Source of the DNA: Candidatus Zambryskibacteria bacterium RIFCSPLOWO2_02_FULL_39_26
Lineage (GTDB): Bacteria > Patescibacteriota > Minisyncoccia > Phycocordibacterales > DATDWN01
Direction: 5' to 3'
Length of the DNA: 55,859 bases
Assembly (NCBI GenBank): GCA_001825395.1
Contig: MHWN01000005.1
Location: forward strand, 1-55,859
Below the pieces are notes generated by a model. That model saw only the letters and a program-made list of their open reading frames with translations. It was not told where the DNA came from and did no database searches. Position numbers and translations under genes: made by a program. Below are positions 27,991 to 45,692 of the stretch, one piece after another (within the stretch, counting starts at the first letter, position 1; every line of letters begins with the position of its first letter).

Positions 27991-28039
27991 TAAATCTATA
28001 CTCGGCGTGACTCGTTTTTTGTGTTAATATAGGCCTATT

Positions 28040-28654: not shown

Positions 28655-28655
28655 T

Positions 28656-29780: not shown

Positions 29781-30727
29781 AAAAATTAATCAAAAAAGGA
29801 ATAAAACATGTTGTGGTCAATACAGCGTATCATTCCGGCTTAGCCAAACTGTTTGGTAGTTTTCATGGACAAAAAGTTTTTTGCGTAGGCTATCACAGTA
29901 TAAGGGATGATAAGAATGAAGAAAAACTAGATACTTCTCTCTATCACAATATTTCTGTAAAAAAGAAAGATTTTGAAGACCAGTTAGTTTTTATGAAAAA
30001 AAACGGACACACCTTCTTAACCTTCAAGGATTTGGAAAGGAAAGATTTAGAAAAAATAAAAAAACCGACAATAATTTTTTTTGACGACGGCTTCAAAGAT
30101 GTTTTACTTAATGCTCTGCCTGTTTTGAAAAAACATAAAATACCTGCCACTCTTTTTGTTACTGTGGGACTTTTGGACAGGACTCATATTCTTTGGACAA
30201 TCAAACTTCGATATCTTTTGAAGAAGGCGGGATTGAACCACAAACACATAGAGGAGCATATTATGAAATTAAAGGGGTTAGATAGGGAAAAAAGAAATTC
30301 AGAAATAGAGAAAATCGAAACGAAATACAAAGTAAAACTTGATTCGCACTGCCTTGACATTTTTCTCAATTGGCAAGAAGTTCTTCAGCTTAAAAAGGAT
30401 GGATTTGAAATAGGATCGCATGGCATTCAGCATGAAAAATTTTCTGAATTAGATCCAGCTAACCTTCACAAGGAGATAAACGACTCGAAATCTATTATTG
30501 AAGGGAAAATCGGTAAAATTGTTGCTATCTCGTATCCTTATGGAAGAACCAATGAAAAAATCAAGAATATGTCCAAACAAGCTGGATACTCATATGGGCT
30601 TGGCACGGGTCACGGATACAATAAATTGCATGATATTTTAACGGGTCCATTTGATTTGAAAAGAATTACTCCGGGACCGGGGGATTCACTTAGCAGATTT
30701 GCTGTGGAGCTTTATATGAATATTTGA
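29777..30727 (+). CDS. polysaccharide deacetylase (NodB-homology, CE4)
   Basis: IIFFDDGFKDV (TFDDG-type motif) and GSHGIQHEKF His motif. Confidence 0.75.
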   Translation: MKKLIKKGIKHVVVNTAYHSGLAKLFGSFHGQKVFCVGYHSIRDDKNEEKLDTSLYHNISVKKKDFEDQLVFMKKNGHTFLTFKDLERKDLEKIKKPTIIFFDDGFKDVLLNALPVLKKHKIPATLFVTVGLLDRTHILWTIKLRYLLKKAGLNHKHIEEHIMKLKGLDREKRNSEIEKIETKYKVKLDSHCLDIFLNWQEVLQLKKDGFEIGSHGIQHEKFSELDPANLHKEINDSKSIIEGKIGKIVAISYPYGRTNEKIKNMSKQAGYSYGLGTGHGYNKLHDILTGPFDLKRITPGPGDSLSRFAVELYMNI

Positions 30728-30732
30728 CCCTC

Positions 30733-31518
30733 ATGATTTTAGAAACAAAAAAATTATTTTTTAGAAAAACATTTGTTTTTTCCAGTCCAGATGTTTTTAT
30801 AGATTTATGTAAAAGTGGCAGATATTCTTCTGTGGTTGCTCTTTGTTATGATAAACTGCCAGAAGATTTCGTAAAAATGTATTCAGCGAAAAATTTAAAG
30901 ATTAGAAAAAAGAAACTGACGTATATTGATATCAAACTAAACGAGGAAGAGATTTTTGATAAATTTAACGATACCACTAAAAAACACGTTAAAAGAACAT
31001 TTAAAAACAGCGATTTAATTTTTAAACATACTCAAAACCCAACAATTAATTCATATAAGGTTTATGCTAATTTTGAATATTCTCAAGGGCGAGTACCTAT
31101 TTCATTTGATGAATTCAAAAAATATAGGTTGTTTAGCGCAGAATACAGAGGTCAAGAAATATCGGGCATATCACTGATTGAAGACAAACCAAACATTAAA
31201 ACTATCACTATCTACTCAAAAAGGGTTGTAACAGAAGACAAGGAAACATATAAAATCATCGCTCAAGCTACTAGAAGAATAGTTTGGGAAATATGTTTAT
31301 GGGCCAAAAAAGAAGGATTTAGACTTTTTGATCTGGGTTCAATTAATTTGGATGACCCAGTAAAAGCCGGAGTAACCGAATTTAAACTTTCTTTCGGTGG
31401 GGAAGTTATTCCCGAATACACTTTCATTTATAAATCAATACACTTCGCATTTTTTGAAAATTTAGTTAGTATAAAAGTTCTATTTAAAAAAATACTTTTT
31501 ATTCTTAAACTGGCGTAA
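30733..31518 (+). CDS. hypothetical protein, possibly FemAB/GNAT-fold acyl- or aminoacyl-transferase
   Basis: The C-terminal GVTEFKLSFGGEV resembles the FemAB-family tail. The assignment is weak. ATG at 30733 is preferred over TTG at 30724. Confidence 0.35.
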   Translation: MILETKKLFFRKTFVFSSPDVFIDLCKSGRYSSVVALCYDKLPEDFVKMYSAKNLKIRKKKLTYIDIKLNEEEIFDKFNDTTKKHVKRTFKNSDLIFKHTQNPTINSYKVYANFEYSQGRVPISFDEFKKYRLFSAEYRGQEISGISLIEDKPNIKTITIYSKRVVTEDKETYKIIAQATRRIVWEICLWAKKEGFRLFDLGSINLDDPVKAGVTEFKLSFGGEVIPEYTFIYKSIHFAFFENLVSIKVLFKKILFILKLA

Positions 31519-32511
31519 TACGGGAGATATTTTTGTGATTAATTTCGGGGCTATAACCATACTTAAAAATTGTAGATTTTCTGGGAAATAAAATAGGTTT
31601 TTGCTCAGAGTAATCCATGCGAAATTTCTTATATCTTTGCCGTGAAGTGTATCTAACATCAATCCGCCCATAGTAAAAGCGGCATAGAGCTTTTTATAAT
31701 TTTTGTATTCACTTGGTATGTATTCTTTTATAACATTAGCCACTTCTTCATTATCAAATATATTAAAAAATACAATACTTCTACTATCCTGTGTCCAGCT
31801 CGTCTCATTTTTACGGTGAAGTACAAAAGGTTTTGCAATAATTAGAAATCGTCCATACTTACTAATTCCTATTAAAACTTGTGCTTGCCATAGGTACAGG
31901 TTTTCTGATCGTAGGTGTTTTTTTGCAGAAGCTTCTTCTTCTAAAAATAGATCTTTTCTAAAAATTACAGATGGAAGAAGGTTTGTTAAATACATCCAAT
32001 TATTTATATTACTCAGCATTTTATAATCTCTCTGAAAATCTTCTACAAAAACATCTTTACTAATATTTAGACGATTTTCCAGAACAATTTTGAAGTTATG
32101 ATTGGCGTCATCTAGAGAAATCATATTCGATGTGTTAACCAGGATAAAATTAGGGTTTTTTTCTTTTATGCATTTTATGAAATATTCTATAGCTCCTTCG
32201 CGTAATAAGTCATCATCTCCACAAATAAGGATATGTTCACTAAGAGCTTCCTTTAACAGGGATTCGATATTTTTAGAGAGTCCAAGGTTTTTTTGATGAT
32301 TGAAACCGCGGACAAATTTATATTGTTTTTTGATTTCATCTATGTAATTGTCTGTCTGATCTCTTGAGGCGTCGTTTCCAATGATGATCTCGACAGCTTC
32401 CTCTAAACCACCTTTTTTAATTTGGTTGATTAAACAAGTGACCATTGTTTCTAGAAACAATGGTCTTTTATATGTAGGTAAAAGTATGCTTAGTAATTTT
32501 TTTTCATTCAT
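31480..32511 (-). CDS. glycosyltransferase family 2
   Basis: LSILLPTYKRP, IIGNDASRD and CGDDDLL. The start MNEKK at 32511 overlaps the upstream stop by 8 nt. The ORF is open to 32538. Confidence 0.75.
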   Translation of the reverse strand: MNEKKLLSILLPTYKRPLFLETMVTCLINQIKKGGLEEAVEIIIGNDASRDQTDNYIDEIKKQYKFVRGFNHQKNLGLSKNIESLLKEALSEHILICGDDDLLREGAIEYFIKCIKEKNPNFILVNTSNMISLDDANHNFKIVLENRLNISKDVFVEDFQRDYKMLSNINNWMYLTNLLPSVIFRKDLFLEEEASAKKHLRSENLYLWQAQVLIGISKYGRFLIIAKPFVLHRKNETSWTQDSRSIVFFNIFDNEEVANVIKEYIPSEYKNYKKLYAAFTMGGLMLDTLHGKDIRNFAWITLSKNLFYFPENLQFLSMVIAPKLITKISPVLRQFKNKKYFFK

Positions 32512-33730
32512 TTCCAGTTTTTTCTTTGAAGAAATCATCGAATATCTTTACAACATATTCTCTGTCTTTTTGGTCCATCCGAGGATGAACTCCTATCCAA
32601 AAACTATGACTAAGAATGTAATTTGCATCATCTAATTTGGAGCCGATTCTGTACTTTACGTTTTTATAGGCGGGGTGTCTGGTTATATTACCAGCAAACA
32701 TAGAACGTGTTTCTATACCATTTTTTTCTAAGTGTGCCACTAATTTACCCCTATCTCCATCATAAGTTAAAGGAAAAGCAAACCAACAAATATCTGCTCC
32801 ATCTACAGATTTAGGAAGTATCATAGGATATTTACCTAAATGTTTATATAAGTAATCAAAATTAGTTTTTCTCAACTTTCTTATTTTATCCGCTTTTCTC
32901 AATTGAATCCTACCCATAGCTGCCTGAAGTTCTAGTATCTGGAAGTTATAGCCCATTTTATCGTATACAAAACGAGGATTGTAATCTTTTGGAAGAGTCT
33001 TCACATTGTGAGGTCTATCGGTGTTAGATTGTCTGCCCCAGTCTCGGTACATTCTGACATTTTGAGCCAACTCTTTGTTGTTTGTAAATATTCCACCCCC
33101 CACTCCCATAGAAACAATATGTGCAGCGTGAAATGAGGTGATTGAAATATCCCCAAATGAACCGAGCATCTTTCCATTTATTGAACCTCCCCAAGTATCA
33201 CATCCGTCTTCTATGACTTTGATCTTGTGTTTGTGGGCAACTTTCATAAGTCTTGGCATATCTACTGGGTTCCCCACTGGGTGTATAGCGATGATGGCTT
33301 TGGTTTTTTTAGATATAGCTTTTTCGACTTCGTCCACGTCAAAGGTGTATGTGCCAATTTTTGCATCAACTACGACAGGGATAAGGCCACATTGAATTAT
33401 GATATTGAATATAGTGGGAAAGGTGCAGGCAGATATGATAACCTCCGAACTCTTTGGTAGTTCCAAGGCTGAAAGGGCAAGAAGTCCAGCAGACGAGCCT
33501 GAGTTAGTCAGTATTCCGTATTTCACACCCAGGAATTTAGCTGCTTCCTCTTCCATCTTTGCCCCTTCCTCGCCTTGTTGCCAATTACCCCTATCTTTAT
33601 TGATTGTTTTAATAATAGCGTTAACTTCTTCGTCTCCAATCATCGCGCCCCCATATCTGATTTTGTGTTTTTTCATTTGTTTATTGTTTTCTTTTACTTT
33701 GTACAATATCATATTTGAGCTTAATGACAA
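32504..33730 (-). CDS. E1/RfbH-like NDP-4-keto-6-deoxyhexose 3-dehydrase (DegT/DnrJ/EryC1 fold, Lys-to-His variant)
   Basis: SFHAAHIVSMGVGGG has His where aminotransferases carry the PLP Lys. YRDWGRQ resembles the RfbH RDWGRD pattern. The start is probably the internal MKKHKIRYGG at 33676. Confidence 0.7.
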   Translation of the reverse strand: MSLSSNMILYKVKENNKQMKKHKIRYGGAMIGDEEVNAIIKTINKDRGNWQQGEEGAKMEEEAAKFLGVKYGILTNSGSSAGLLALSALELPKSSEVIISACTFPTIFNIIIQCGLIPVVVDAKIGTYTFDVDEVEKAISKKTKAIIAIHPVGNPVDMPRLMKVAHKHKIKVIEDGCDTWGGSINGKMLGSFGDISITSFHAAHIVSMGVGGGIFTNNKELAQNVRMYRDWGRQSNTDRPHNVKTLPKDYNPRFVYDKMGYNFQILELQAAMGRIQLRKADKIRKLRKTNFDYLYKHLGKYPMILPKSVDGADICWFAFPLTYDGDRGKLVAHLEKNGIETRSMFAGNITRHPAYKNVKYRIGSKLDDANYILSHSFWIGVHPRMDQKDREYVVKIFDDFFKEKTGNE

Positions 33731-33766
33731 GGTTTTATTCGCTTTCTGAATACAGTAAAATTATTT

Positions 33767-34165
33767 TTAAATTCCTAATTCTGACACTATTTTGATGGCA
33801 TTCAGTTTAGATGGCCAGCGAACAGTAATTAACACTGAATCCTCAATCGCTTTCCAAGTGTGTGGAATTTCTGCGGGATAAATTAAGTAATCTCCTTCGG
33901 TCTCCATTAAGCATTCGCCAATTTCTGGAAAAATATTTACGAATTTTCCTTTTACCAAGATTGTCAAGGTTTTAGCCTCAACACTTTTAGTCCAACCATC
34001 TTTTTTATCTCCAGCGCTATGTATGGACCACATAACTTCAACTGTCGAATCCTTTCGTAATCCTTTTGATTCATCAATGAAAGATCCAATCAACCACTGA
34101 CGTTTGTTTCTGTCCTTATAAGCATTTCCTTTTATAACCTGGTCACTTATTTTTTTTACAGCCAT
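33767..34165 (-). CDS. cupin-domain protein (possible sugar isomerase/epimerase)
   Basis: 132 aa. GDYLIYPAEIPHTWKA is a cupin-like strand pattern. Overlaps the stop of the 4,6-dehydratase. Confidence 0.5.
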   Translation of the reverse strand: MAVKKISDQVIKGNAYKDRNKRQWLIGSFIDESKGLRKDSTVEVMWSIHSAGDKKDGWTKSVEAKTLTILVKGKFVNIFPEIGECLMETEGDYLIYPAEIPHTWKAIEDSVLITVRWPSKLNAIKIVSELGI

Positions 34166-35229
34166 TTGTTATTTTTCTTTTGCCACTCGATCGTATCTTT
34201 TAAAGATTTTTCAAACGACACGGGTGATTTCCATCCTTTCTTTTTTAATTTTGAATCATCGAGTCCATAATGCTTATCATGTCCTGGTCGTGTAAATTGA
34301 GAACTTTTCAGTTCGTATTTAAGTTTTTTGCCCATCAATTTGGCAATAAGTTGTGATAATTGCAAGTTATCCAATTGCTTGTCGCCAGCAATATTGTATC
34401 TGTCAGGTTTGTCTATTGTGTCCGGTATGTGTAGGTATGGAGGAAGATTTTTAATAATAAACAAAATTGCATCTGCCGAATTTCTTGAATGAATATATGA
34501 ACGTGAACCGATATCACCCTTCTTGCCATGAATTATAACTGTCTGGTCATTTTCAACTAATTTCTGAATCATAACAGGGAATTTTGATCCTTGTTGCATT
34601 TCTCCAAAATTATTCATCGTATTAGTAATAATGATCGGTACATTGTATGTTCTCCAGTAGGAAATTGCGATTGCTTCCTGGCATGCTTTTGAGGCAGCAT
34701 AAGGATTGGAGGGAACAATAGGTGCCCATTCTTTAAACCCTGTTACACCGTTTGATGGTCCGTATACTTCATCAGTAGAAAATTGAATAAACGTTTCTGG
34801 CTTAACTTCACGAGCGTATTCTAGGATGTTTAAGGTCAACCATACATTGTTTTGGAAATAGGTTACTGGGTCATGTATGCTTGCTTCAACATCAGACAGA
34901 GCTGCAAGGTTGATAATATAATCGATTCTTCCCATTTTTTTCTTTGTTACCTCAGAAAATGGGCCAATCAAATCATGAGTGATCATAGTCAGTCTTTCTT
35001 GCCATTCTGGATTGCCTTCAATTATATGAGCAATTCTATCTGACCAACCTCTGTGTCTGAAACTAGCAACACCTATGACATGCCAGTTTGTATTGTGCAT
35101 TATGTGGGCATAAAAATGACAACCAATACTTCCTCCTATTCCAGTTAAGAGGACCCTCTTAACTTCCCCCTTATTGTTCGTTTCTTTATCGATTTTTTGT
35201 CTAGCCATAAAATTGTAAAAAAGACTCAC
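34156..35229 (-). CDS. NDP-hexose 4,6-dehydratase (extended SDR, RmlB-like)
   Basis: VLLTGIGGSIGCH, FSTDEVYG and the PYAASKACQE YxxxK motif. Confidence 0.75.
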   Translation of the reverse strand: MSLFYNFMARQKIDKETNNKGEVKRVLLTGIGGSIGCHFYAHIMHNTNWHVIGVASFRHRGWSDRIAHIIEGNPEWQERLTMITHDLIGPFSEVTKKKMGRIDYIINLAALSDVEASIHDPVTYFQNNVWLTLNILEYAREVKPETFIQFSTDEVYGPSNGVTGFKEWAPIVPSNPYAASKACQEAIAISYWRTYNVPIIITNTMNNFGEMQQGSKFPVMIQKLVENDQTVIIHGKKGDIGSRSYIHSRNSADAILFIIKNLPPYLHIPDTIDKPDRYNIAGDKQLDNLQLSQLIAKLMGKKLKYELKSSQFTRPGHDKHYGLDDSKLKKKGWKSPVSFEKSLKDTIEWQKKNNKWL

Positions 35230-35284
35230 ATTTTTGGTAAATGAATATCAATAAAATTAGCATACAATATCATAAAAGTCACCC

Positions 35285-36397
35285 TTATATTTTTCTTGGA
35301 ATAAAATGTTTCTCGTCTCTCCATTCTAGAATAAAAAGACGTTTAGCTTCAGCGTGTAGGGATATATCCCAGTTTATTTCTCCAGTTTCATCTTTAATAC
35401 CCGGTATATTGTTTTTTTGACATATTACCCGAACATTGTCGTGCCATTTTTTCTCATTTCCTCCTGTCATATTATTAAGGTGATCACAAGCTGTCCCTAT
35501 TGAAGCTAGTGTGTAACCTGCTTCTAACATTCGACAACTCATTATTCTGTCGTAGTGATAATATAAAAGCGGAGGATAATTAGGTTCTTTTAGATTTTCC
35601 CATGCGCTTCGACGAAGTGCCATAACGCATCCATCTATAACAACACATTGTGTTAATCCATCATAACGTTGTCCATGAAGAGACGCAGGAGTGCCAGTCC
35701 ATGATTCATCTTTATATGAGTATGTCTTACCTAGAAAATTGGAAGTCGTTCCCCATAACCGACTGCCATTTTCTGCCATTTCATCAGAACCAACAAATCC
35801 AACCATTCCTAATCTATTATCCTTTTCAAATATGTATCGCAGTAGAACATCAAAACCATTCTCTTCTATCATAATATCGTTATGTATGAATAAAAGGATA
35901 TCTCCGGTAGTATTTTCCATCCAAAATTTAAAATTAGGATAACCTCCCTTGTCTGTAACCACTTTTATATTTATAGGTTTGTCTGGCAAATCTCCTTTTT
36001 CAATGACAAAATCACCACCACCATCCATAACAACTATCTCCATCTTTCCTATTGAAGAGGAAACAAGTTTGGATAAGCAAAGTTTGGATAATTCATGCTG
36101 ACCGAGCACGGTAACTATGACGGAAAGTTTTGGCAATTTTCTTTCCGCCAGATAATATTTATAAGCCTCTTCTCTTAGTTTTTCTCCTGCCTGTGAATTA
36201 AAAATTCTCCGGAGTAATGCTCGTCCTTTGTAATACAATAGGCGTCTTATTTTATACAAAAAAGCTCTAAAACCTTCTTTGAATATCATTTCCCAAGCAT
36301 TTCTAGCTTTCATTACTAAAGTTGGCTTTTCAATATTTACGGTTTTATTGAAGGATATAGGTAGAGCTTCTTTAGAAAAAGATTTTTGATTGTCCAT
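35285..36397 (-). CDS. GT-A fold glycosyltransferase-like protein (hypothetical)
   Basis: LSVIVTVLGQHEL...IVVMDGGGD...LLFIHNDIMIEE is a GT2-like N-terminal pattern. Confidence 0.45.
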   Translation of the reverse strand: MDNQKSFSKEALPISFNKTVNIEKPTLVMKARNAWEMIFKEGFRAFLYKIRRLLYYKGRALLRRIFNSQAGEKLREEAYKYYLAERKLPKLSVIVTVLGQHELSKLCLSKLVSSSIGKMEIVVMDGGGDFVIEKGDLPDKPINIKVVTDKGGYPNFKFWMENTTGDILLFIHNDIMIEENGFDVLLRYIFEKDNRLGMVGFVGSDEMAENGSRLWGTTSNFLGKTYSYKDESWTGTPASLHGQRYDGLTQCVVIDGCVMALRRSAWENLKEPNYPPLLYYHYDRIMSCRMLEAGYTLASIGTACDHLNNMTGGNEKKWHDNVRVICQKNNIPGIKDETGEINWDISLHAEAKRLFILEWRDEKHFIPRKI

Positions 36398-36562
36398 CTA
36401 TAATTTTAAATTAAGAATTATTTAATATCCGAATATTATCATAACCTCTTAAAAAAGAGTAATTTTCAATATTTATTTGATTAATCCATAAAATAGTGTA
36501 TTCTTTTAAACAGATAAGGGTTCTTTGATAGACCCAAAAAATTCAGAAAAGGGAAGGTTGAA

Positions 36563-38503
36563 ATGAACAGAAAACGCAATGTCCAGCTGGTTCAGGTAAA
36601 CTACCAGTATGGGCAAAACGTTTTTGTCCCATACTCCGTCGGCTCGCTTCAAGCATACGCCGAAACTGTTCCAGAAATTAGGAACAGTTTCAACTTTCAG
36701 GAACCACTTTTCTTACGAGAAGATCCTGTGAGTGTCGTCCGAAACATGAAAAATCCGACGGTTGTCGGTTTCTCGTGCTACCTCTGGAACTGGGAGTACA
36801 ACACGACTCTAGCCAGAGCTGTGAGGGAAGCCTTTCCCAAAGCACTCATTGTTTTTGGAGGAACGCAGGTGCCAAACGCCTCGGATGGATTTTTCGAAAA
36901 GTATCCATGCGTGGATATTTTAGTCCATCATGAGGGTGAGTTGCCGTTCGCTGATATCCTTCAGGAGTCGCTTTCGGCAAGTCCGGACTATACCAGCATA
37001 ACGGGGTTGAGTGTCAGAGTAGAAGGGGTGGAAACCCTGAAGACTTTGTCGCGCGAGAGGGTGAAAGACTTGTCGATCTTGCCTTCGCCGTACCTTGCTG
37101 GGATCTTTGACTTTATGTTGGGACGAGGATTTTCGCTCAATGTCAGTCAGGAGACCAATCGTGGTTGCCCGTACTCTTGCACGTTCTGTGACTGGGGCGG
37201 AGCCACTTACTCCAAAATGTTTTCTATTGACATAGATCGGATTCTCGCAGAGTTCGACTGGTTCGGTAGAAACAAGGCGGAGTACTTGTTCAATTGTGAT
37301 GCCAACTATGGCATCTTGCCTCGTGATCACGATCTCACCATGAAAATGGTGGAGACTCGCGCGAGGTACAATGGATATCCGAAGAGATTTCGGATGTGCA
37401 CTGCAAAAAACAGCAACGACAAGATCTTTGAAATCGTCAAGATTCTGTCGGATGTTGGAATGAACAAGGGCGCCACGTTGTCGTTTCAGTCCATGGACGA
37501 GGGGACGCTCACGATTGTCAAGAGAAGGAACATCAAGATTACGCAGTTCTCTCACTTGATGGATCGGTACAGGGAAGCGGGGATTGCCACCTACACCGAA
37601 CTTATCTTGGCCATGCCGGGAGAATCTTACCAAAGCACCAAGGATGGCATTGACACTCTGATTGATGGCCAAGACGACAACGTCAACATCTACGTCTATC
37701 CTTGTACAGCGTTACCCAACTCGGAGATGAGTGATCCGAGATACGTTGAGGTGCACCAGATAAAGTCGGTGCGTATGCCGATTCTTCTGGCACACTCAAC
37801 CCCAGAACCGGAGTCACTAACTGAGTACAGCGAGGCGATTGTGGAGACGTCAACCATGTCCCGAGAGGACTGGTGTTGGGCGTACATGTTTTACTGGGCA
37901 GTTCAGGGGTTTCATTGTCTTGGACTGACTCAACACATCGCTATCTTCTTCCACAAGTTTTTCGGTTTGAAGTATAGCGATTTCTACGAGAAGCTTGTTA
38001 ATTACTTCACCGAGAACAAGGAAACGTTTATCGGTGAAGAAGTCGCTCTGACTTGGAACATCGTCAGAGCAGCGCAAGGCGGTGGGCGTCTAGACCGGAT
38101 TCTTCCGCGATTCGGGAATATTTACTGGCCACTGGAGGAGGCCACGTTTCTGAATCTGATTACCTACAAGGAGAAGTCTTACGGAGAGATCCGTGGATTT
38201 CTGAATGTGCTGGTGCGTGATTTGGGTCTGGGCGAGATTGATCCGGTTTTACTCGACGATGTCGTCTTGTACGCATCGTCGAGGATTATTGGTCCGAATC
38301 TTCCGCCAGTATCGATCGAGCTCCATTACAACCTGCATGAGTACTTGAGTAGGTTGCGGGATCCGTCGGTTAGGCTAGAAAAAATGCCGATGAGTCTCAC
38401 TATCAAAGCCGAGACAGATTTTGGTGGAGATCTTGAACGCTACGCTAAGGAAGTTGTGTGGTACGGCAGGAAAGGTGGAAAGTTCCACCATCCTGTTGTC
38501 TAA
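36563..38503 (+). CDS. B12-binding-domain radical SAM enzyme (class B rSAM)
   Basis: N-terminal cobalamin-domain pattern VVGFSCYLWNW...LIVFGGTQVP...HHEGELPFADIL. CX3CX2C cluster motif RGCPYSCTFCDWG. RBS GGGAAGG. About 52% GC in a hand-counted line, against 18-37% in flanking lines. Confidence 0.85.
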   Translation: MNRKRNVQLVQVNYQYGQNVFVPYSVGSLQAYAETVPEIRNSFNFQEPLFLREDPVSVVRNMKNPTVVGFSCYLWNWEYNTTLARAVREAFPKALIVFGGTQVPNASDGFFEKYPCVDILVHHEGELPFADILQESLSASPDYTSITGLSVRVEGVETLKTLSRERVKDLSILPSPYLAGIFDFMLGRGFSLNVSQETNRGCPYSCTFCDWGGATYSKMFSIDIDRILAEFDWFGRNKAEYLFNCDANYGILPRDHDLTMKMVETRARYNGYPKRFRMCTAKNSNDKIFEIVKILSDVGMNKGATLSFQSMDEGTLTIVKRRNIKITQFSHLMDRYREAGIATYTELILAMPGESYQSTKDGIDTLIDGQDDNVNIYVYPCTALPNSEMSDPRYVEVHQIKSVRMPILLAHSTPEPESLTEYSEAIVETSTMSREDWCWAYMFYWAVQGFHCLGLTQHIAIFFHKFFGLKYSDFYEKLVNYFTENKETFIGEEVALTWNIVRAAQGGGRLDRILPRFGNIYWPLEEATFLNLITYKEKSYGEIRGFLNVLVRDLGLGEIDPVLLDDVVLYASSRIIGPNLPPVSIELHYNLHEYLSRLRDPSVRLEKMPMSLTIKAETDFGGDLERYAKEVVWYGRKGGKFHHPVV

Positions 38504-38516
38504 GAGCAACAGGTCC

Positions 38517-39623
38517 TCAAACGTCTAGGTGGGTCACTCCATCTAGACGTTTTTCTAATTCCTTAAACCAAAACAAAGTATATGATGTTTTGGTGGGGTA
38601 TATTATATTACCCAAAATAATTCCTAATTTCTGTTTCCATTTGGGAAGATGAAAAGAAGGGGTAATTTTTATGTCAGGATAAGCAGATAGCAGATCCTTT
38701 TTTGAGGAAAAATTTTCTACTTTTTTTACTACACGTTCAAATGTTTGAATACCCACTTTCTCTAAAGAGATTCTAAAAAGTCTATATACTATCTTATGTC
38801 CTGGTTTTATTTCATCTAATCCAAGAAGATCCATGTCAAGTTTGCAATCATAATTTTTCTCTCCAATGGCAAGTTTTTTATAATTCTCTACTTGAATCGG
38901 TTTAGACATAAAAACATGGACAGTTCCATCATAGACAGGATATTTATGCATAAATTCTGTAAAATTATCAAATTTTTGCTGAAAGACCTCTTTGTATTCG
39001 GGGTTTTTTTCAAACCATTTTGACATATCAGTTGATCTTTGGCCATGCCATCCAAATTGGCCATTCCATACCACACCTCTGTTATTTCCCTCGATGCTGA
39101 ATCTTGAAGCAATTTCAATTGGGGCAAAAACCATGCCCTCTTTTTCTAAATATGGACGAGCAATTTCGCAAACCCACAAGTCTTCAGGATGATAAGAACC
39201 CCCAATTTTTTTGTAATTTTTTACATAATAATCTAGTAATCGTTTACTTCTTATGCTAAAACCACCACTTCCTATCATTGGCTTTCCAAATTGGTACCAT
39301 GGCGCACCGATATAATCATATTTTAGAAAATCTGGATCCCAAGCGGCAGGATTGGCGATGAATGCGTCTGGATGAAAAAATAAAGCATATTTAGTATCAA
39401 CAAATTTACCAACCTCGGAAATGTAATATAAGGAATATTTCTGCCAATCATTAAGTAGTTCTGGCACAGGAACTACTCTCGGATCGTCTGATGGAATTGA
39501 AGAAAGAATCTTCACTGCGCCGAAAGAAAATTCTCTTTCACAGATGTCAGCTGCAACTAAAGTTTGTTTTAGATTGACACAGTCAAAAGTGATCAGGGTT
39601 ACATTCGGTAAATGTTTTTTCAT
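38517..39623 (-). CDS. hypothetical protein (possibly DUF5672-like nucleotide-sugar transferase fold)
   Basis: 368-aa ORF. N-terminus NVTLITFDCVNL...ICEREFSFGAVKILSS. The family call is from memory only. The C-terminal 12 codons are read out of the foreign terminator. Confidence 0.4.
   Translation of the reverse strand: MKKHLPNVTLITFDCVNLKQTLVAADICEREFSFGAVKILSSIPSDDPRVVPVPELLNDWQKYSLYYISEVGKFVDTKYALFFHPDAFIANPAAWDPDFLKYDYIGAPWYQFGKPMIGSGGFSIRSKRLLDYYVKNYKKIGGSYHPEDLWVCEIARPYLEKEGMVFAPIEIASRFSIEGNNRGVVWNGQFGWHGQRSTDMSKWFEKNPEYKEVFQQKFDNFTEFMHKYPVYDGTVHVFMSKPIQVENYKKLAIGEKNYDCKLDMDLLGLDEIKPGHKIVYRLFRISLEKVGIQTFERVVKKVENFSSKKDLLSAYPDIKITPSFHLPKWKQKLGIILGNIIYPTKTSYTLFWFKELEKRLDGVTHLDV
38519..38554 (+). 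terminator. intrinsic terminator of the radical SAM gene
   Basis: AAACGTCTAG-(14 nt)-CTAGACGTTT followed by TT. Overlaps the last codons of the convergent ORF. Confidence 0.7.
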
Positions 39624-39632
39624 TTTATTAAT

Positions 39633-40898
39633 TTATGTCGTCTCTCGAGACGCTCGATTATAGAGAAGGATATTTGTTGTGCTCCAACATATTTTTGTGA
39701 TTACTCGAGCCAGGACTAATCCAATAAGTCCCCAATATAGTATACCGACAAATAGTAAAACAATTTGTATTATTGTACCTAAAATAGTTCCTATATATTG
39801 TTCCTTAATTCTTTCTCTTATTATCAGATAAACTTCAGCGGGGGAAGATATCATACCCAAAAAGTAAAAAACAAATATTTGAGAATAAAAAATAGAATCA
39901 GTATATTTTGGAAATAAAATATGGAAAATGTATGGAGCCAGCACAATGTAAGTTATTATTATAACAATACTGGAAATAAAAAGTAAAAAATATTTATTTT
40001 TCATACCGTGTCGGATTTCTTTATCACTGCGCTCGGCGAATTTCGGAAAAATTAAACTGGCCAAACCTTTCATAGGTCCTTTTATTTGGTTGGGGATAGC
40101 GATGGCAAAGTTGTATATTGCCAGTTGAGCAGGTCCAATATAGTGAAAAACTAGTACTTGATCTATATTATCTACAATTGTTCCTAAAATATTTATTATA
40201 CTTAAATGTTTACTATAACCAAGGGCTCCCGAGTCCACTTTGTCGTTTGGTTTATAAATTTTTAAGACTCTTAAATAAAGAATTAGCCCAATCAATGTGT
40301 TGGAAGTAAAATAAACAGCCACAAACCATATAGGTTTGTTAGTTATGAGCATTGTTATAAAAAGGCAAAATGCGGGAAAAACATTTCCTATAAGATTAAA
40401 ATAAATTGAACTTCGCTTGAAATCCTTTTTTGCTACGAGGAAAGAGTTGTATAAGTTAGTACTGGCTATAAATGGTGAGAAAGATCCGACCACTAGCATT
40501 GATATAGCCAAAGAGATATTTTCATTTACAAAATAATAAATTGAAATACCAAGAATTACCAAAAAAAACAAAACACTCCACTTTATATTTTTCCAAAAGA
40601 TATCGTTTAACGTTCCTTCAAAACCACCTGTCACGGATTTCATAACTGCCGTACCAAGTCCAGTCAGAGTGAACACTCCAAGAATGTTTGCCAGTGATAG
40701 TATAAATTTATACTGACCATAAGTTTCTTTTGAAATAAAATAAGCGAATGCCATTGCCAGGAGGAGGGTGGAAACGGTAACAATTATCTGGCTGAAAATA
40801 GACCAAAAACCACCCTTAACTAGATAAACCATGTCGGTTTTGGTGTAGCGTTCCAAATATCTCAGGCCATTTATACCCTTATTTTTTAATACCTCCAT
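39633..40898 (-). CDS. Wzx-type oligosaccharide flippase (MOP superfamily)
   Basis: 421 aa with about 12 TM segments, the usual polysaccharide-biosynthesis-protein layout. Confidence 0.7.
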   Translation of the reverse strand: MEVLKNKGINGLRYLERYTKTDMVYLVKGGFWSIFSQIIVTVSTLLLAMAFAYFISKETYGQYKFILSLANILGVFTLTGLGTAVMKSVTGGFEGTLNDIFWKNIKWSVLFFLVILGISIYYFVNENISLAISMLVVGSFSPFIASTNLYNSFLVAKKDFKRSSIYFNLIGNVFPAFCLFITMLITNKPIWFVAVYFTSNTLIGLILYLRVLKIYKPNDKVDSGALGYSKHLSIINILGTIVDNIDQVLVFHYIGPAQLAIYNFAIAIPNQIKGPMKGLASLIFPKFAERSDKEIRHGMKNKYFLLFISSIVIIITYIVLAPYIFHILFPKYTDSIFYSQIFVFYFLGMISSPAEVYLIIRERIKEQYIGTILGTIIQIVLLFVGILYWGLIGLVLARVITKICWSTTNILLYNRASRETT

Positions 40899-41021
40899 AA
40901 TCGTGTGTATGATATCACAAGGGCGGTATTTTACTAGAATATTAATGATTTGAAGATACTAGTAGTTACTTATATCCAAGGATTTGGTTAATTAATCAGG
41001 TAATGCTAATATGATTCAATT

Positions 41022-41879
41022 ATGCATGATAATTCTCGGGAAATCCTATCCAAGGTTTTGATTACTGGTGCAAATGGCGTTGTTGGAAGTTATATAGATT
41101 TTGGTATTAAATTGGACCATCGCTCGCTTGATATTACTGATTTAAATGAGGTACTTTCCGTGGTTTCTAAACATTCCCCGAAGTTTATTGTTCATTTGGC
41201 TGCTGAAACCGACGTTGAACGTTGTGAAAGGGATCCACAGCACGCCTACATTGTCAATTCAATTGGAACTTATAATATTGCTTTAGCCGCCAAAAGTGTC
41301 GGAGCCAAAATGATTTACATTTCAACCTCGGCAGTTTTTGACGGGTTAGATGGTCCTTATACAGAAAATGATGCGTGTAATCCTCAAAGTTATTACGCAA
41401 AATCAAAGTTTCTAGGAGAATTGATTGTTCAGGGTGTTTTAGATGACTATGTTATCGGTCGAGCATGCTGGATGTTTGGTGGGGGGAGCAAACTTGATAA
41501 AAAATTTATCTCAGCAATTATTCAGAAAATGAGAGAACCAGAAATAAAAGTTGTAAAAAAAAGATTTGGCTCACCAACTTATGCCAAAGATTTGGCGGGA
41601 GCCATAAAAAAAATGATTCTAAATAACGATAAGGGAATTTTTCACATTTCTAATGGAGGTAATCCATCAAGGGTGGATATTACCAAGGAAATTGTTAAAA
41701 TAACAGGCTCGGCTACAAAAATTACTGAAGTTGAGCCAAGTTTTTTTAGTCACGTTTATTCAGACCAGAAGGAAAATAATGAAGGCATGCTATCAAAAGT
41801 TAAAATTATGAGGTCATGGCAAGATGCTTTGAAAGATTATATAAAAGAAGAATGGTCAGATTATATAATGAAAAGATAA
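41022..41879 (+). CDS. dTDP-4-dehydrorhamnose reductase-like NDP-sugar 4-ketoreductase (RmlD family)
   Basis: VLITGANGVVGSY...LDITD...IVHLAAETDVERCERDP...YAKSK. Confidence 0.7.
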   Translation: MHDNSREILSKVLITGANGVVGSYIDFGIKLDHRSLDITDLNEVLSVVSKHSPKFIVHLAAETDVERCERDPQHAYIVNSIGTYNIALAAKSVGAKMIYISTSAVFDGLDGPYTENDACNPQSYYAKSKFLGELIVQGVLDDYVIGRACWMFGGGSKLDKKFISAIIQKMREPEIKVVKKRFGSPTYAKDLAGAIKKMILNNDKGIFHISNGGNPSRVDITKEIVKITGSATKITEVEPSFFSHVYSDQKENNEGMLSKVKIMRSWQDALKDYIKEEWSDYIMKR

Positions 41880-43108
41880 TGAAAATTTACTATCGCAGAA
41901 ATAATTGCCGTGTTTGCAATTCAACAAACTTAACCAAGGTTCTGGATTTAAATAAAACTCCTCTAGCAAATGCATTCGTAAGCAAGGAAAACTTGAAAAA
42001 GAAAGAAAAAACTTTCCCCCTTTCAGTTTATTTTTGTAACAACTGCTCGCTTGTTCAGATTCCTGATGTGGTTAATCCCGAGATATTGTTTAGCGATTAT
42101 TATTTCATAACAGCATCAAGCTCGCCACTGATAGACCATTTTAAAAAATATGGAGAAGAAATTATTAAAAAATTTATTAAGTCAAAGAGCGATCTTGTTA
42201 TAGATATTGGGGGAAATGATGCAACGTTACTTAACGAATTAAAAAATGACTGCAAAGTGTTAAATATCGAACCGGCAAAAAATATCGCGGAAATCTCGAA
42301 AAAGAGGGGAATTGAAACAATAAACCAATTTTTTTCAAAAAAAGTCGCAAAAGGTATTATAAAAAAATACGGGCATGCAACAGTGGTGACTGCAAACAAT
42401 ATCATTGCTCATACAGACACTGTCAGGGAATTATTTGAAGGAGTGGGGGATATTATCGGTGATAAAGGTGTATTTATATTTGAAGCTCATTGGGTTAAAA
42501 ATCTTCTTGTAGAGGGTTGTTTTGATCAGATTTATCATGAACACCTTTGCTACTATTCTCTTCATGCAATCAAATATTTAGCAAATTCCGTTGGTCTGTC
42601 TATTTTTGATGTAAAGACAGTTCCGACCCAAGGGCAATCACTTAGAGTATATGTGGCAAAAAATAAAAAACCCTTACCTTCTGTTTCTAAGTTTATAAAA
42701 ATTGAGCAAAAAAATGGTCTACATGAGGTAAAAACATTTGCAGATTTTTCCAAAAATGTAATTAAAAATAAAGCTAATACGGTAAAGTTGTTAAACGATT
42801 TAAAATCAAAAAACAAAAAAATAGTCGGTTACGGGGCTCCGGCAAAAGGCACTACACTTTTAAATTTTTATGAAGTTGGTCCGAAAATAATCGACTATAT
42901 TATTGATACTACTCCCATAAAGCAAGGCTTATATGTGCCCGGTGTTCATATTCCCATTTATCATCCAGAAAAACTCTACCAATCCAAACCTGATTACATA
43001 CTGCTTCTGGCCTGGAATTATGCCGATACTATTCTTGAAAAAGAAAAGGACCTAAGGGAAATGGGAGTGAAGTTTATCATCCCGGTTCCAGAAGTAAAAA
43101 TTGTCTAA
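41879..43108 (+). CDS. NDP-hexose C-methyltransferase (TylC3-like: Zn-ribbon + class I MTase + C-methyltransferase C-terminal domain)
   Basis: CRVCNS...CNNCSLVQ zinc motif and a VIDIGGNDATLL SAM motif. The start ATG overlaps the RmlD-like stop (TAATG). Confidence 0.7.
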   Translation: MKIYYRRNNCRVCNSTNLTKVLDLNKTPLANAFVSKENLKKKEKTFPLSVYFCNNCSLVQIPDVVNPEILFSDYYFITASSSPLIDHFKKYGEEIIKKFIKSKSDLVIDIGGNDATLLNELKNDCKVLNIEPAKNIAEISKKRGIETINQFFSKKVAKGIIKKYGHATVVTANNIIAHTDTVRELFEGVGDIIGDKGVFIFEAHWVKNLLVEGCFDQIYHEHLCYYSLHAIKYLANSVGLSIFDVKTVPTQGQSLRVYVAKNKKPLPSVSKFIKIEQKNGLHEVKTFADFSKNVIKNKANTVKLLNDLKSKNKKIVGYGAPAKGTTLLNFYEVGPKIIDYIIDTTPIKQGLYVPGVHIPIYHPEKLYQSKPDYILLLAWNYADTILEKEKDLREMGVKFIIPVPEVKIV

Positions 43109-43152
43109 TTTTTTAACTGGCGCAGATAAAAGTCATTTGTTATACTGTTCAA

Positions 43153-45321: not shown

Positions 45322-45433
45322 TTTTTAGATTTAAAATTTTAAATTATACCATTTACCAACGATCGCGGTTTAATGGTATGATTTAAAATTAACTAGGTTT
45401 GCATTTAATGTAAACCTATGGTATGATACCCAT

Positions 45434-45520
45434 GTGGGTGCGTTTTATAGGATTGCTTTGCAATAATGTGGGCGTATCAACAACGAATGTTAGGAAGAGG
45501 GCCACTTCGGTGGCCTTTTT
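45434..45520 (+). ncRNA. candidate ~87-nt small RNA (promoter TGGTATGAT at 45419-45427, terminator 45500-45520)
   Basis: Extended -10 followed ~75 nt later by GGCCAC-TTCG-GTGGCC-TTTTT. Internal ATTGC-TTT-GCAAT hairpin. Repeated ATGTGGG(T/C)G. No RBS. Confidence 0.35.
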
Positions 45521-45568
45521 CCGTACTTGATTTTTAACCATATAAGTCTAAAATTAAATTGTTGTTCT

Positions 45569-45636
45569 GATGGTTGGTTAGCGGTTCGCACTCACGTATT
45601 CATTCGTTGGAGGTTCGCTTCCGCTAACCAACCATC
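45569..45636 (+). other. 68-nt hairpin with a perfect 16-bp stem and a 36-nt loop
   Basis: GATGGTTGGTTAGCGG...CCGCTAACCAACCATC. The loop carries two GGTTCGC motifs. Confidence 0.8.
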
Positions 45637-45646
45637 GGCGCAAATA

Positions 45647-45672
45647 AAAATTCTGTTAAACGCAGAATTTTT
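45647..45672 (+). terminator. terminator-like hairpin abutting the secA promoter
   Basis: AAAATTCTG-TTAAACG-CAGAATTTT followed by TG. Confidence 0.5.
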
Positions 45673-45692
45673 GTGTTATAATCCAGCTTATC

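What the first reader, a model, noticed from the sequence alone, without database searches (positions are those of the whole stretch)
36563..38554. Compositionally foreign B12-binding radical SAM gene in the middle of the glycan locus
A 646-aa ORF carries an N-terminal cobalamin-binding-type domain and the CX3CX2C motif (RGCPYSCTFCDWG). It is the only gene of this kind in the window. It is far more GC-rich than its surroundings: 52% in one hand-counted 60-nt line, against 18% in the upstream spacer and 37% in the downstream gene. The shift begins at the start codon and ends in the gene's own terminator at 38519-38554. The convergent native-looking ORF reads its last ~12 codons out of that terminator, which suggests an inserted cassette that re-made the neighbour's 3' end. 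Class B rSAM enzymes methylate or rearrange unactivated carbons, including sugars (the GenK/Fom3-type precedent). Here the gene sits between GT, flippase and deoxysugar genes. That makes it a candidate for an undescribed radical modification of a surface glycan, in an organism type that normally cannot make cobalamin.
Basis: partly seen in the sequence, partly recalled or inferred. Interest (0 to 1): 0.75.

Follow-up and report, generated by a model that had tools for sequence, protein, structure and literature searches.

The report
Transferred TokK-like B12 methylase in glycan locus
A vitamin-B12-dependent radical methylating enzyme, whose closest studied relatives build branched alkyl groups on antibiotics, has been horizontally acquired as a self-contained single-gene unit inside the surface-sugar gene cluster of a tiny Parcubacteria (CPR) bacterium, where it most likely adds methyl groups to a cell-surface sugar; its actual substrate is unknown.

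Summary
ORF 36563-38503 (646 aa) is a three-domain cobalamin-type radical SAM enzyme. It is the strongest compositional outlier in the window: GC 0.49 and GC3 0.59 against gene means of 0.36 and 0.32, tetranucleotide z 6.3, codon-usage z 4.9. It is not an assembly chimera, because the same arrangement recurs in at least 22 contigs from several assemblies. Its nearest characterised relatives are TokK and CysS, iterative sp3-carbon methylases, not GenK or Fom3. The evidence is phmmer E 9e-108, a predicted-fold TM-score of 0.89 over the full length, and the presence of every signature motif of that cluster. The mobile unit is promoter-like leader + ORF + hairpin terminator. Three diverged low-GC Parcubacteria share it with different neighbours. 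A close relative (L231) lacks the whole 7.06-kb block 31480-38555. The neighbouring DUF5672 ORF does read a unique 14-codon tail through the hairpin. Relatives at ≥44% identity lie among glycan genes in about 32 of 34 informative loci, but no partner gene is fixed and DUF5672 is not one. The function is inferred: radical C-methylation, possibly iterative, of a surface-glycan sugar or substituent. This is a new member of a known enzyme kind. Substrate and cobalamin supply are untested.

The parts
31480..38555 (.). 7.06-kb block absent from the closely related locus L231. It holds GT2 (31480-32538), a DegT aminotransferase (32504-33730), a 132-aa ORF (33767-34165), an NDP-sugar 4,6-dehydratase-like gene (34156-35229), GT2_5 (35285-36397) and the rSAM unit. 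Only the rSAM unit is GC-rich.
   Evidence: L231 is collinear with window 24349-31497 and 38556-45679 and has nothing in between.
36477..36562 (+). AT-rich leader that travels with the gene. It has a promoter-like -35 TTGATT (36477-36482), a 16-nt spacer ending in TG, a -10 TATTCT (36499-36504), a small leader hairpin GGGT...ACCC (36518-35), and an RBS-like GGGAAGG (36551-36557).
   Evidence: It aligns with the regions upstream of the L008 and L009/L010 copies, and homology is lost further upstream (A2). Promoter and RBS are assigned by consensus only. There is no Rfam match.
36563..38503 (+). 646-aa TokK/CysS-type cobalamin-dependent radical SAM methylase gene.
36719..36958 (+). Core of the N-terminal cobalamin-binding Rossmann domain (aa 53-132). 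It includes W75 (equivalent to TokK W76, under the cobalt), G99-G100, and E124-G125-E126.
   Evidence: Pfam PF02310 scores 31.2 bits. W75 and E126 are conserved in 70 of 70 family members. G99, G100 and G125 are invariant in the 44-sequence alignment A1. The motifs are defined in PMC9204698.
37166..37195 (+). [4Fe-4S] cluster loop C202-X3-C206-X2-C209-D-W211. W211 is equivalent to TokK W215.
   Evidence: The sequence is. All four residues are conserved in 70 of 70 members.
37850..38500 (+). C-terminal helical domain (aa 430-646) of the TokK type. In TokK this domain forms part of the substrate channel.
   Evidence: The Foldseek match to TokK runs the full length with TM 0.89. Sequence similarity to TokK fades after residue 493. 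The domain matches 446 clusters at 50% identity.
38519..38552 (.). Hairpin terminator between the convergent genes (15-bp stem, then TTTTTCT).
   Evidence: A hairpin with different stem bases on both arms occupies the same position in L008 and L009 (A3).
38517..38561 (-). Lineage-specific 14-codon tail plus stop codon of the DUF5672 ORF, read through the hairpin.
   Evidence: The L008 homologue stops at ...SYTLFWFK*. In 21 homologues the protein ends 0-10 residues after this motif with unrelated sequences.
38517..39623 (-). DUF5672-family gene. It belongs to the conserved arm of the locus (Wzy_C, C-methyltransferase, RmlD, Wzx, DUF5672) and is not a partner of the rSAM.

Best explanation
The gene encodes a cobalamin-dependent (class B) radical SAM methylase of the TokK/ThnK/CysS architecture. 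It sits in the variable part of a roughly 40-kb surface-glycan assembly locus of a low-GC Parcubacteria (probably Zambryskibacteria) bacterium. It arrived by horizontal transfer from a GC-richer relative as a self-contained transcription unit of promoter-like leader, ORF and terminator.

Inferred mechanism, by homology with TokK: the reduced [4Fe-4S] cluster on C202/C206/C209 cleaves SAM to give a 5'-deoxyadenosyl radical. That radical abstracts a hydrogen from an unactivated sp3 carbon of the substrate. The substrate radical takes the methyl group from methylcobalamin held on the N-terminal Rossmann domain, with W75 beneath the cobalt and W211 between the two cofactors. A second SAM then re-methylates cob(I)alamin.

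The most likely substrate is a sugar, or an O-methyl, C-methyl or N-acyl substituent of a sugar, of the surface glycan. It could be acted on at the nucleotide-sugar or the lipid-linked stage. Methylation may be repeated, as in this clade's characterised members.

Shown here: the ORF, the motifs, the predicted fold, the composition anomaly, the empty site, the unit's boundaries, and the conserved glycan context. Inferred: methylase activity, cobalamin use, and the glycan substrate.
For: Enzyme class:
- phmmer gives TokK E 8.7e-108 over residues 18-492 and CysS E 5e-62.
- The AlphaFold2 model has pLDDT 92.4. It matches TokK with TM 0.89 over the full length and CysS with 0.75, against about 0.5 for TsrM and OxsB.
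- The signature features of the cluster are all present: W under the cobalt, C-X3-C-X2-C-X-W, D-A-N, GG and GE. The catalytic residues checked are 100% conserved in 70 diverse members.
- R277, equivalent to TokK's substrate-binding R280, is invariant in the close subfamily.

Transfer:
- GC3 z is 4.6, tetranucleotide z 6.3 and codon-usage z 4.9.
- Homologues elsewhere track their host's GC, which ranges from 0.28 to 0.65, so nothing intrinsic forces high GC.
- The nearest outgroup sits in a host of 63% GC.
- The unit is shared by the window, L008 and L009/P0121 with different flanks.
- L231, L232 and L233 lack the gene.
- dS between the window and L008 is 0.93 for the rSAM and about 2.7 for the adjacent DUF5672 gene. 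Nucleotide identity steps from about 0.80 to about 0.69 at the junction.

The gene is kept functional: dN/dS is about 0.11.

Glycan role:
- 30 of 34 informative close-subfamily loci carry annotated glycan families within five genes. Two more do after a further check.
- Distant members sit with a GHMP kinase, an NTP-transferase fused to a HAD phosphatase, and epimerases.
Against: - No biochemical data exist for any glycan-locus member.
- The characterised relatives all act on natural-product intermediates, two of them pantetheine-linked.
- No single neighbour is conserved, so the substrate cannot be deduced.
- The NCBIfam KedN5-family score (290.9) is far below its cut-off of 700, and the match covers only residues 22-404.
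- The C-terminal, substrate-binding domain is too diverged from TokK to map contact residues.
- No integrase, transposase or flanking repeats explain how the unit moved.
- Two diverged copies (window and L008, dS about 0.9) both keep GC3 of about 0.59 in hosts of about 0.36 GC. That fits a single old transfer poorly, and it means the history is only partly resolved.
- No cobalamin uptake or salvage gene is visible in the window.
Confidence: 0.6

Rival explanations
1. The enzyme is a genuine TokK-like methylase, but its substrate is not the glycan. It could be a small metabolite, a lipid or a carrier-bound intermediate. On this view the gene merely landed in a recombination-tolerant variable locus.
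For: All characterised clade members (TokK, ThnK, CysS, KedN5) act on natural-product intermediates. No neighbour is conserved. The unit has its own promoter-like leader and terminator, so it needs no operon partners. The Streptomyces member L014 has no glycan neighbours. L005 carries carrier-protein and MaoC/SDR genes downstream.
Against: Glycan genes lie within five genes in about 32 of 34 informative loci, spanning CPR, Saccharibacteria, Alphaproteobacteria and Chloroflexi, and distant Firmicutes members show a sugar-activation context too. Chance insertion would not repeat this across phyla. CPR genomes have few other pathways that could supply a substrate (my own knowledge).
Confidence: 0.2
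2. It is a cobalamin-type radical SAM enzyme that performs chemistry other than methylation, such as rearrangement, ring contraction, cyclisation or thioether formation, as OxsB, BchE, HpnJ or ThnL do.
For: Class B enzymes are chemically diverse, and function is hard to predict from sequence (PMC9204698). The substrate-binding C-terminal domain has diverged.
Against: The fold and sequence are far closer to the methylases TokK and CysS (TM 0.89 and 0.75) than to OxsB (about 0.5). HpnJ and BchE score only 50 and 41 bits, against 291 for KedN5. All TokK-cluster signature residues are retained.
Confidence: 0.1
3. The high GC is native. On this view it reflects amino-acid composition, or selection on codon usage or mRNA structure, and the gene was inherited vertically.
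For: Three related low-GC lineages all carry GC-richer copies. The gene lies at the same chromosomal locus, next to Wzy_C and SecA, in the window and on the P0121 contig.
Against: The excess is mainly at third codon positions (GC3 z 4.6, against 1.6 for GC1 and 1.3 for GC2). Homologues in other low-GC hosts are fully equilibrated: L015 0.33, L094 0.36, L116 0.34 and SAR11 0.28. Closer relatives of the host, judged by DUF5672 identity, lack the gene. dS differs about three-fold across the junction.
Confidence: 0.05
4. The GC step is an assembly chimera that joins two organisms.
For: Sharp composition boundaries occur at both ends of a single gene in a metagenome-derived sequence.
Against: The same gene order occurs in at least 22 contigs from several independent assemblies. 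L001 is 99.97% identical to the window over 13.1 kb across both junctions. The diverged lineage L008 has the same 3' junction at 80% nucleotide identity.
Confidence: 0.02

Closest known systems
TokK / ThnK (carbapenem C6 alkylation; PDB 7KDX, 7KDY)
   Same: It has the same three-domain architecture, including the C-terminal domain once described as distinct to TokK (TM 0.89). Identity to TokK is 39% over 470 residues. It keeps W76, W215, D250-A-N252, the GG and GE motifs, and the substrate-carboxylate Arg280, here W75, W211, D246-A-N248 and R277.
   Different: It lies in a surface-glycan locus of a CPR bacterium, not a Streptomyces beta-lactam cluster, and there are no carbapenem genes nearby. 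C-terminal domain sequence similarity is lost after residue 493. The substrate, and whether methylation is iterative, are unknown.
CysS (cystobactamid methoxy to ethoxy, isopropoxy and butoxy ethers; PDB 9N1B)
   Same: Same clade and fold (E 5e-62, TM 0.75). Both signature Trp residues are shared.
   Different: Identity is about 33%. CysS has Trp where this protein and TokK have Arg (R277). The CysS substrate is carrier- or pantetheine-bound.
KedN5 family (NCBIfam NF033712, methylcobalamin-dependent radical SAM C-methyltransferases)
   Same: It is the best NCBIfam hit (E 1.6e-86, 290.9 bits, residues 22-404).
   Different: The score is far below the family cut-off of 700, and the C-terminal third is not matched. 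By NCBI's criterion the protein is not a member.
GenK, GenD1, Fms7, Fom3 and MoeK5 (class B methylases acting on sugars or phosphonates in antibiotic pathways)
   Same: They use the same general chemistry, Cbl- and SAM-dependent radical C-methylation of sp3 carbons. They also set the precedent that sugars can be substrates (PMC9204698).
   Different: The review places them in other sequence-similarity clusters. They lack the TokK-type Trp pair. The related NCBIfam models that do hit (PhpK, HpnR, HpnJ) score 31-50 bits against 291 for KedN5.
Mosaic O-antigen and capsule loci with horizontally acquired tailoring genes
   Same: The locus is variable but sits at a fixed chromosomal position (next to Wzy_C and SecA). 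Gene content differs between close relatives, and one module has atypical GC.
   Different: Here the atypical module is a single-gene unit that is GC-richer than its host. No mobility gene is adjacent. The nearest transposase, a Y1_Tnp, is 17 kb away.

Membership tests
Radical SAM superfamily | CX3CX2C motif that binds the [4Fe-4S] cluster, within a partial TIM-barrel core | tested here: met
   C202, C206 and C209 are present. Pfam PF04055 scores 39.5 bits against a cut-off of 29.5. The cysteines are conserved in 70 of 70 relatives.
Class B (cobalamin-dependent) radical SAM | N-terminal Rossmann-type cobalamin-binding domain | tested here: met
   PF02310 scores 31.2 bits, marginally below its gathering score of 32.1. 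The predicted N-terminal domain superposes on TokK as part of a full-length TM 0.89 match. The GG and GE motifs are present.
Class B (cobalamin-dependent) radical SAM | Actual binding and use of cobalamin | not testable with these tools
   This needs purified protein, examined by UV-vis, EPR or mass spectrometry.
TokK/ThnK/CysS/Swb9/PctJ cluster | Trp beneath the cobalt (TokK W76) | tested here: met
   W75 aligns with TokK W76 and is conserved in 70 of 70 members. The feature is defined.
TokK/ThnK/CysS/Swb9/PctJ cluster | Cys loop followed by Trp: C-X3-C-X2-C-X-W (TokK W215) | tested here: met
   The sequence is CPYSCTFCDW, and W211 is conserved in 70 of 70.
TokK/ThnK/CysS/Swb9/PctJ cluster | Asp-Ala-Asn at the position of the 'GGE' motif (TokK D250-A251-N252) | tested here: met
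   D246-A247-N248 is present. D is conserved in 69 of 70 and N in 70 of 70.
TokK/ThnK/CysS/Swb9/PctJ cluster | Large C-terminal helical domain that completes the substrate channel | tested here: met
   The Foldseek alignment spans 675 columns with TM 0.89 to TokK and 0.75 to CysS. This holds at the level of predicted fold only; sequence similarity ends at about residue 493.
TokK/ThnK/CysS/Swb9/PctJ cluster | Several successive methylations on one substrate | not testable with these tools
   This requires an enzyme assay.
TokK/ThnK orthologues (carbapenem pathway) | Location in a carbapenem biosynthetic cluster, with a pantetheinylated carbapenam substrate | tested here: not met
   The neighbours are glycosyltransferases, sugar dehydratases and aminotransferases, Wzx and Wzy_C.
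NCBIfam NF033712 (KedN5 family) | Whole-protein score of at least 700 bits | tested here: not met
   The score is 290.9 bits, and only residues 22-404 match.
GenK/Fom3-type sugar or phosphonate methylases | Closest similarity to GenK, Fms7, Fom3 or MoeK5 rather than to other class B clusters | tested here: not met
   The top hits are KedN5, TokK and CysS. The review places GenK, Fms7, Fom3 and MoeK5 in different clusters. No GenK or Fom3 sequence was compared directly.
Horizontally acquired island or cassette | Atypical composition at synonymous sites | tested here: met
   GC3 z is 4.6, tetranucleotide z 6.3 and codon-usage z 4.9.
Horizontally acquired island or cassette | Empty site in a close relative | tested here: met
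   L231 lacks window 31480-38555, and L232 and L233 also lack the gene. The polarity (gain or loss) of the whole 7-kb block is not resolved.
Horizontally acquired island or cassette | Adjacent mobility gene or flanking repeats | tested here: not met
   No integrase or transposase is adjacent. The only flanking repeat is a 16-nt AT-rich inverted repeat of the kind expected by chance.

The most novel reading that the evidence does not exclude
TokK-like B12 radical methylases form a widespread, uncharacterised class of surface-glycan tailoring enzymes found in CPR bacteria, Saccharibacteria, Nanoarchaeota, gut Firmicutes and SAR11. Like their antibiotic-pathway relatives, they would build ethyl, isopropyl or longer branches step by step. 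The targets could be extended O-methyl ethers, C-methyl branches or 6-deoxy termini on cell-surface sugars. In ultra-small symbionts that cannot make cobalamin, the surface antigen would then depend on B12 scavenged from the host or community. The gene would be traded between lineages as a plug-in unit that diversifies the cell surface.
Probability: 0.25. Interest if true: 0.7.

Novelty: new member of a known kind. Interest (0 to 1): 0.45.

Why it matters
Class B radical SAM methylases are known almost entirely from antibiotic, cofactor and lipid pathways. The TokK/CysS clade is the one known for stepwise construction of branched alkyl groups. Finding this clade embedded in cell-surface glycan loci across many phyla points to a sugar modification that has not been described chemically. 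Here the gene is a recently transferred, independently transcribed unit in a CPR bacterium.

Natural presence/absence pairs (window type against L231 type) give a direct way to look for that modification. The finding also bears on what minimal symbionts do with scavenged cobalamin. It shows how their surface loci diversify by single-gene exchange.

The enzymology itself is expected from homology, so the advance would lie in the substrate and the biology, not in a new kind of catalyst.

Tried and rejected
- An Rfam scan of the leader and gene (E ≤ 1) and of the whole window (gathering threshold) found no cobalamin riboswitch or other relevant RNA, only a tRNA.
- The search for direct or inverted repeats flanking the unit found only short AT-rich matches of the kind expected by chance.
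- The viral-contig scan found 57 loci with relatives, but at 45% identity or less, so no vector for this transfer was identified.
- Mapping TokK's C-terminal contact residues (N515, Y652) failed, because sequence alignment stops at TokK residue 493.
- PDB sequence searches for the DUF5672 protein and the 132-aa ORF gave nothing significant.
- Five literature searches found no characterised glycan-locus member and nothing on cobalamin-dependent radical SAM enzymes in CPR bacteria.
- DUF5672 and Wzx were tested as functional partners and rejected.
- A recombination tract extending into DUF5672 was rejected, because identity is flat at about 0.69 right up to the junction.
- Selection for high GC was rejected, because homologues in other low-GC hosts are equilibrated.


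Full report
**1. Observation**

ORF 36563-38503 (+) encodes 646 aa and contains RGCPYSCTFCDWG at residues 200-212. Pfam finds Radical_SAM at 199-361 (39.5 bits). It finds B12-binding at 53-132 with 31.2 bits, a hair below the 32.1 cut-off. No other radical SAM gene lies in the window.

The composition anomaly is real and is concentrated at synonymous sites.
- GC is 0.489 and GC3 is 0.594, against means of 0.356 and 0.317 for the other 49 ORFs (z 3.4 and 4.6). GC1 and GC2 are only mildly raised (z 1.6 and 1.3).
- The 36501-38500 window is the strongest tetranucleotide outlier (z 6.3).
- The gene is the strongest codon-usage outlier (z 4.9, next gene 1.2).
- The upstream spacer has 15-20% GC. 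GC climbs at the ATG and drops at about 38.55 kb.

The hairpin 38519-38552 has a 15-bp stem and a T-run. Its dG is -26 kcal/mol, and none of 200 shuffles folds as well. The convergent ORF 38517-39623 ends inside it.

**2. Organism and locus**

The nearest protein with a taxon name is 98% identical and comes from a Candidatus Zambryskibacteria MAG. The next homologues are all Patescibacteria. DUF5672 homologues are likewise from Parcubacteria/Paceibacterota.

Window positions 3.7-45.3 kb form one large glycan-assembly locus. It contains:
- GT4, GT2 and GT-C (PMT_2) glycosyltransferases and GtrA;
- two DegT aminotransferases and several NDP-sugar dehydratases, epimerases and reductases;
- a NUDIX gene and a polysaccharide deacetylase;
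- five class-I methyltransferases and a TylC3-like sugar C-methyltransferase;
- Wzx and a Wzy_C-TPR protein.

SecA follows the locus.

**3. What the protein is**

Sequence searches place it with the iterative methylases.
- phmmer against PDB sequences gives TokK at E 8.7e-108 (residues 18-492) and CysS at E 5e-62, and nothing else.
- NCBIfam's best model is the KedN5 family (290.9 bits over residues 22-404, cut-off 700). HpnJ, BchE, PhpK and HpnR score 31-50 bits.

The predicted structure agrees. An AlphaFold2 model built on 44 homologues has pLDDT 92.4 and pTM 0.90. Foldseek gives TM 0.89 to TokK over 675 columns, which covers all three domains. It gives 0.75 to CysS and about 0.5 to TsrM and OxsB.

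The TokK paper and a 2022 review define the signatures of the TokK/ThnK/CysS(/Swb9/PctJ) cluster. All are present here.

| Signature in TokK | Residues here |
|---|---|
| Trp under the cobalt (W76) | W75 |
| C-X3-C-X2-C-X-W (W215) | C202...C209-D-W211 |
| D-A-N replacing 'GGE' | D246-A247-N248 |
| GG motif | G99-G100 |
| GE motif | E124-G125-E126 |

The cluster cysteines, both Trp residues, R200, E126, N248, K282 and Q309 are conserved in 70 of 70 diverse family members, including TokK and CysS.

R277 aligns with TokK R280, which binds the substrate carboxylate. It is invariant in the close subfamily. Across the wider set it is Arg in 47 of 70, Ser in 15, and Trp in CysS.

Identity to TokK is 39% over 470 residues. 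Past residue 493 only the fold, not the sequence, is recognisably shared.

**4. Is it foreign, and what moved?**

It is not a chimera. The same gene order is found in at least 22 contigs from several assemblies, and one of them is 99.97% identical over 13.1 kb.

Nothing intrinsic forces high GC. Across about 120 homologue loci, gene GC follows host GC from 0.28 to 0.65, mostly within ±0.03. Equilibrated low-GC examples include L015, L094, L116 and SAR11. A minority deviate in either direction:
- GC-richer than the flanks: L101 +0.16, L008 +0.14, L146 +0.10;
- GC-poorer than the flanks: L084 -0.15, L117 -0.12, L014 -0.11.

That pattern fits a gene that is often exchanged between hosts.

The window copy groups with L008 (82% aa; gene GC 0.50, flanks 0.36) and L009/P0121 (81% aa; gene GC 0.43, flanks 0.36). 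In an unsupported NJ tree the nearest outgroup is L005/L119, in a host of 63% GC.

The three copies share about 85-95 nt of AT-rich leader and a terminator hairpin.
- The leader has a -35 TTGAYY, a 16-nt spacer ending in TG, a -10 element, a small GGGT...ACCC hairpin and an RBS.
- The terminator stem differs on both arms between copies but still pairs.
- Homology stops beyond these limits.

The flanking genes differ in each lineage.

| Lineage | Upstream gene | Downstream gene |
|---|---|---|
| Window | GT2_5 | DUF5672 |
| L008 | CTP_transf_like | DUF5672 |
| P0121 contig | ABC-2 permease | epimerase |

The P0121 contig shows the same larger layout (... Wzy_C-TPR, SecA), but it uses Wzm/Wzt export instead of Wzx.

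Between the window and L008, the two genes have different histories.

| Gene | dS | dN | Nucleotide identity |
|---|---|---|---|
| rSAM | 0.93 | 0.105 (dN/dS about 0.11) | about 0.80 |
| DUF5672 | about 2.7 (saturated; few sites) | 0.237 | about 0.69 |

The identity step falls exactly at the junction.

L231 carries the closest DUF5672 homologue (78%). It is collinear with window 24349-31497 and 38556-45679 but lacks the 7.06 kb in between. That block holds GT2, DegT, the 132-aa ORF, the dehydratase, GT2_5 and the rSAM unit. L232 and L233 also lack the rSAM.

My reading is as follows. This is a variable glycan locus at a fixed chromosomal site. The rSAM unit is a separately mobile module, acquired from a GC-richer relative and exchanged among related lineages. 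Whether the five low-GC genes beside it came in together with it is unresolved. No mobility gene or meaningful flanking repeat was found.

**5. The neighbour's 3' end**

The L008 DUF5672 homologue ends at ...SYTLFWFK*. The window copy has lost that stop and reads ELEKRLDGVTHLDV through the hairpin. In 21 homologues the protein ends 0-10 residues after the conserved YT(L/I)FWF(E/K) motif, with unrelated tails. Database homologues cover only 96% of the window protein. The tail, however, arose after the junction existed.

**6. Context across the family**

For relatives at ≥44% identity, 30 of 34 loci with at least three neighbours carry annotated glycan families within five genes:
- NAD-dependent epimerase/dehydratase in 15 of the 39 close-subfamily loci analysed;
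- UDP-sugar 6-dehydrogenase in 11;
- Wzt in 9;
- GT11 in 8, usually directly adjacent;
- DegT in 7;
- GT2, GT4, NUDIX and AsnB in smaller numbers.

Two of the four exceptions turned out to have a GT2 or a CMP-sugar cytidylyltransferase nearby. The Streptomyces locus L014 has no glycan neighbours.

Distant members at about 35% identity, mostly from Acutalibacteraceae, sit in tandem arrays of paralogues. Their neighbours are a GHMP kinase, an NTP-transferase fused to a HAD phosphatase, epimerases and TPP enzymes.

No single partner is conserved. DUF5672 accompanies the rSAM only in the window and L008.

**7. Mechanism (inferred)**

By homology with TokK, the steps would be:
1. reductive cleavage of SAM at the [4Fe-4S] cluster;
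2. hydrogen abstraction from an sp3 carbon by the 5'-deoxyadenosyl radical;
3. methyl transfer from methylcobalamin to the substrate radical;
4. re-methylation of cob(I)alamin by a second SAM.

The clade's characterised members methylate repeatedly, so iterative extension is plausible but untested. Candidate targets in this locus are the O-methyl groups made by the five class-I methyltransferases, the C-methyl branch made by the TylC3-like enzyme, a 6-deoxy terminus, or an N-acyl group of the amino sugar. The conserved Arg at the TokK R280 position hints at an anionic group near the reaction site. This is a lead only.

**8. Cobalamin**

No uptake or salvage gene and no riboswitch lies in the window, and none appears among the conserved neighbours. 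That CPR bacteria lack cobalamin biosynthesis is general knowledge on my part and was not tested here. Purifying selection (dN/dS about 0.11) argues that the enzyme is in use.

**9. Verdict**

This is a well-supported case of a horizontally acquired, independently transcribed TokK/CysS-type B12 radical methylase in a Parcubacterial glycan locus. As an enzyme it is a new member of a known kind. Its substrate, and a possibly new class of glycan alkylation, remain open. The family defined by the C-terminal domain is moderate in size: 446 clusters at 50% identity.

**Limits of this analysis**
- The tree is NJ without support values.
- dS for DUF5672 is saturated and rests on few sites.
- Only the largest neighbour clusters were annotated.
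- All structural statements rest on a predicted model.

Noticed in passing
window 53869-55859: The window is 99.96% identical to a sister contig up to 53872, the end of tRNA-Arg, and then diverges completely. The sister contig continues with a 210-aa gene, two ThsB-like TIR genes and a ResIII helicase, which looks like a defence island. The window instead has about 2 kb with only short ORFs, GC rising to 0.45, and a tRNA-Phe called by ARAGORN but not by Rfam at its gathering score. This looks like a strain-variable island at a tRNA gene.
   Followed up: partly
window 19095-19772 (-): A Y1_Tnp (IS200/IS605-type) transposase gene sits inside the glycan locus, 17 kb from the rSAM unit.
   Followed up: no
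window 9337-9921 (-) and 49750-50250 (+): Two further ORFs are compositionally high: GC 0.46 and 0.48, GC3 0.50 and 0.50. Neither has a significant Pfam match, apart from a weak DUF218 hit for the first. They could be other foreign genes or non-coding ORFs.
   Followed up: partly
window 22629-28654: Four class-I SAM methyltransferase genes lie within a 6-kb stretch between GT4 genes, and a TylC3-like NDP-sugar C-methyltransferase lies at 41816-43108. Together they suggest a heavily methylated glycan. The arrangement is conserved in L231.
   Followed up: no
L018-L060 and other loci (Acutalibacteraceae, Oscillospiraceae and other Clostridia): Gut Firmicutes carry tandem arrays of paralogous TokK-like B12 radical SAM genes: 109 extra copies in 43 loci. 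A GHMP kinase and an NTP-transferase-HAD fusion lie beside them. This looks like an uncharacterised sugar-activation and alkylation pathway.
   Followed up: partly
L174-L230 (IMG/VR contigs): 57 contigs classed as viral, some 150-370 kb long, encode family members at 27-45% identity. At least one (87,334 bp) has the same length as a metagenome contig fetched separately, so it may be the same sequence, and some of these may be cellular.
   Followed up: no
L103 5188-6837 (-): A second B12-binding radical SAM gene of a different type (549 aa) lies three genes upstream of the family member in an Azambacteria-like locus.
   Followed up: no
window 36408-36423 and 38615-38630: A 16-nt AT-rich inverted repeat, 94% complementary, brackets the rSAM unit about 70 nt outside each end of the conserved segment. 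By a rough estimate a few such matches are expected by chance in AT-rich DNA, and the L008 flanks are not homologous there.
   Followed up: partly
window 38517-39623 (-) and homologues: JGI names some homologues of the DUF5672 protein 'ASC-1-like (ASCH) protein', and about half of the family members are short (around 230 aa) with the DUF5672 domain only. The protein therefore seems to be a two-domain fusion of unknown function. It lies in the conserved arm of Parcubacterial glycan loci, and L232 has two copies.
   Followed up: no
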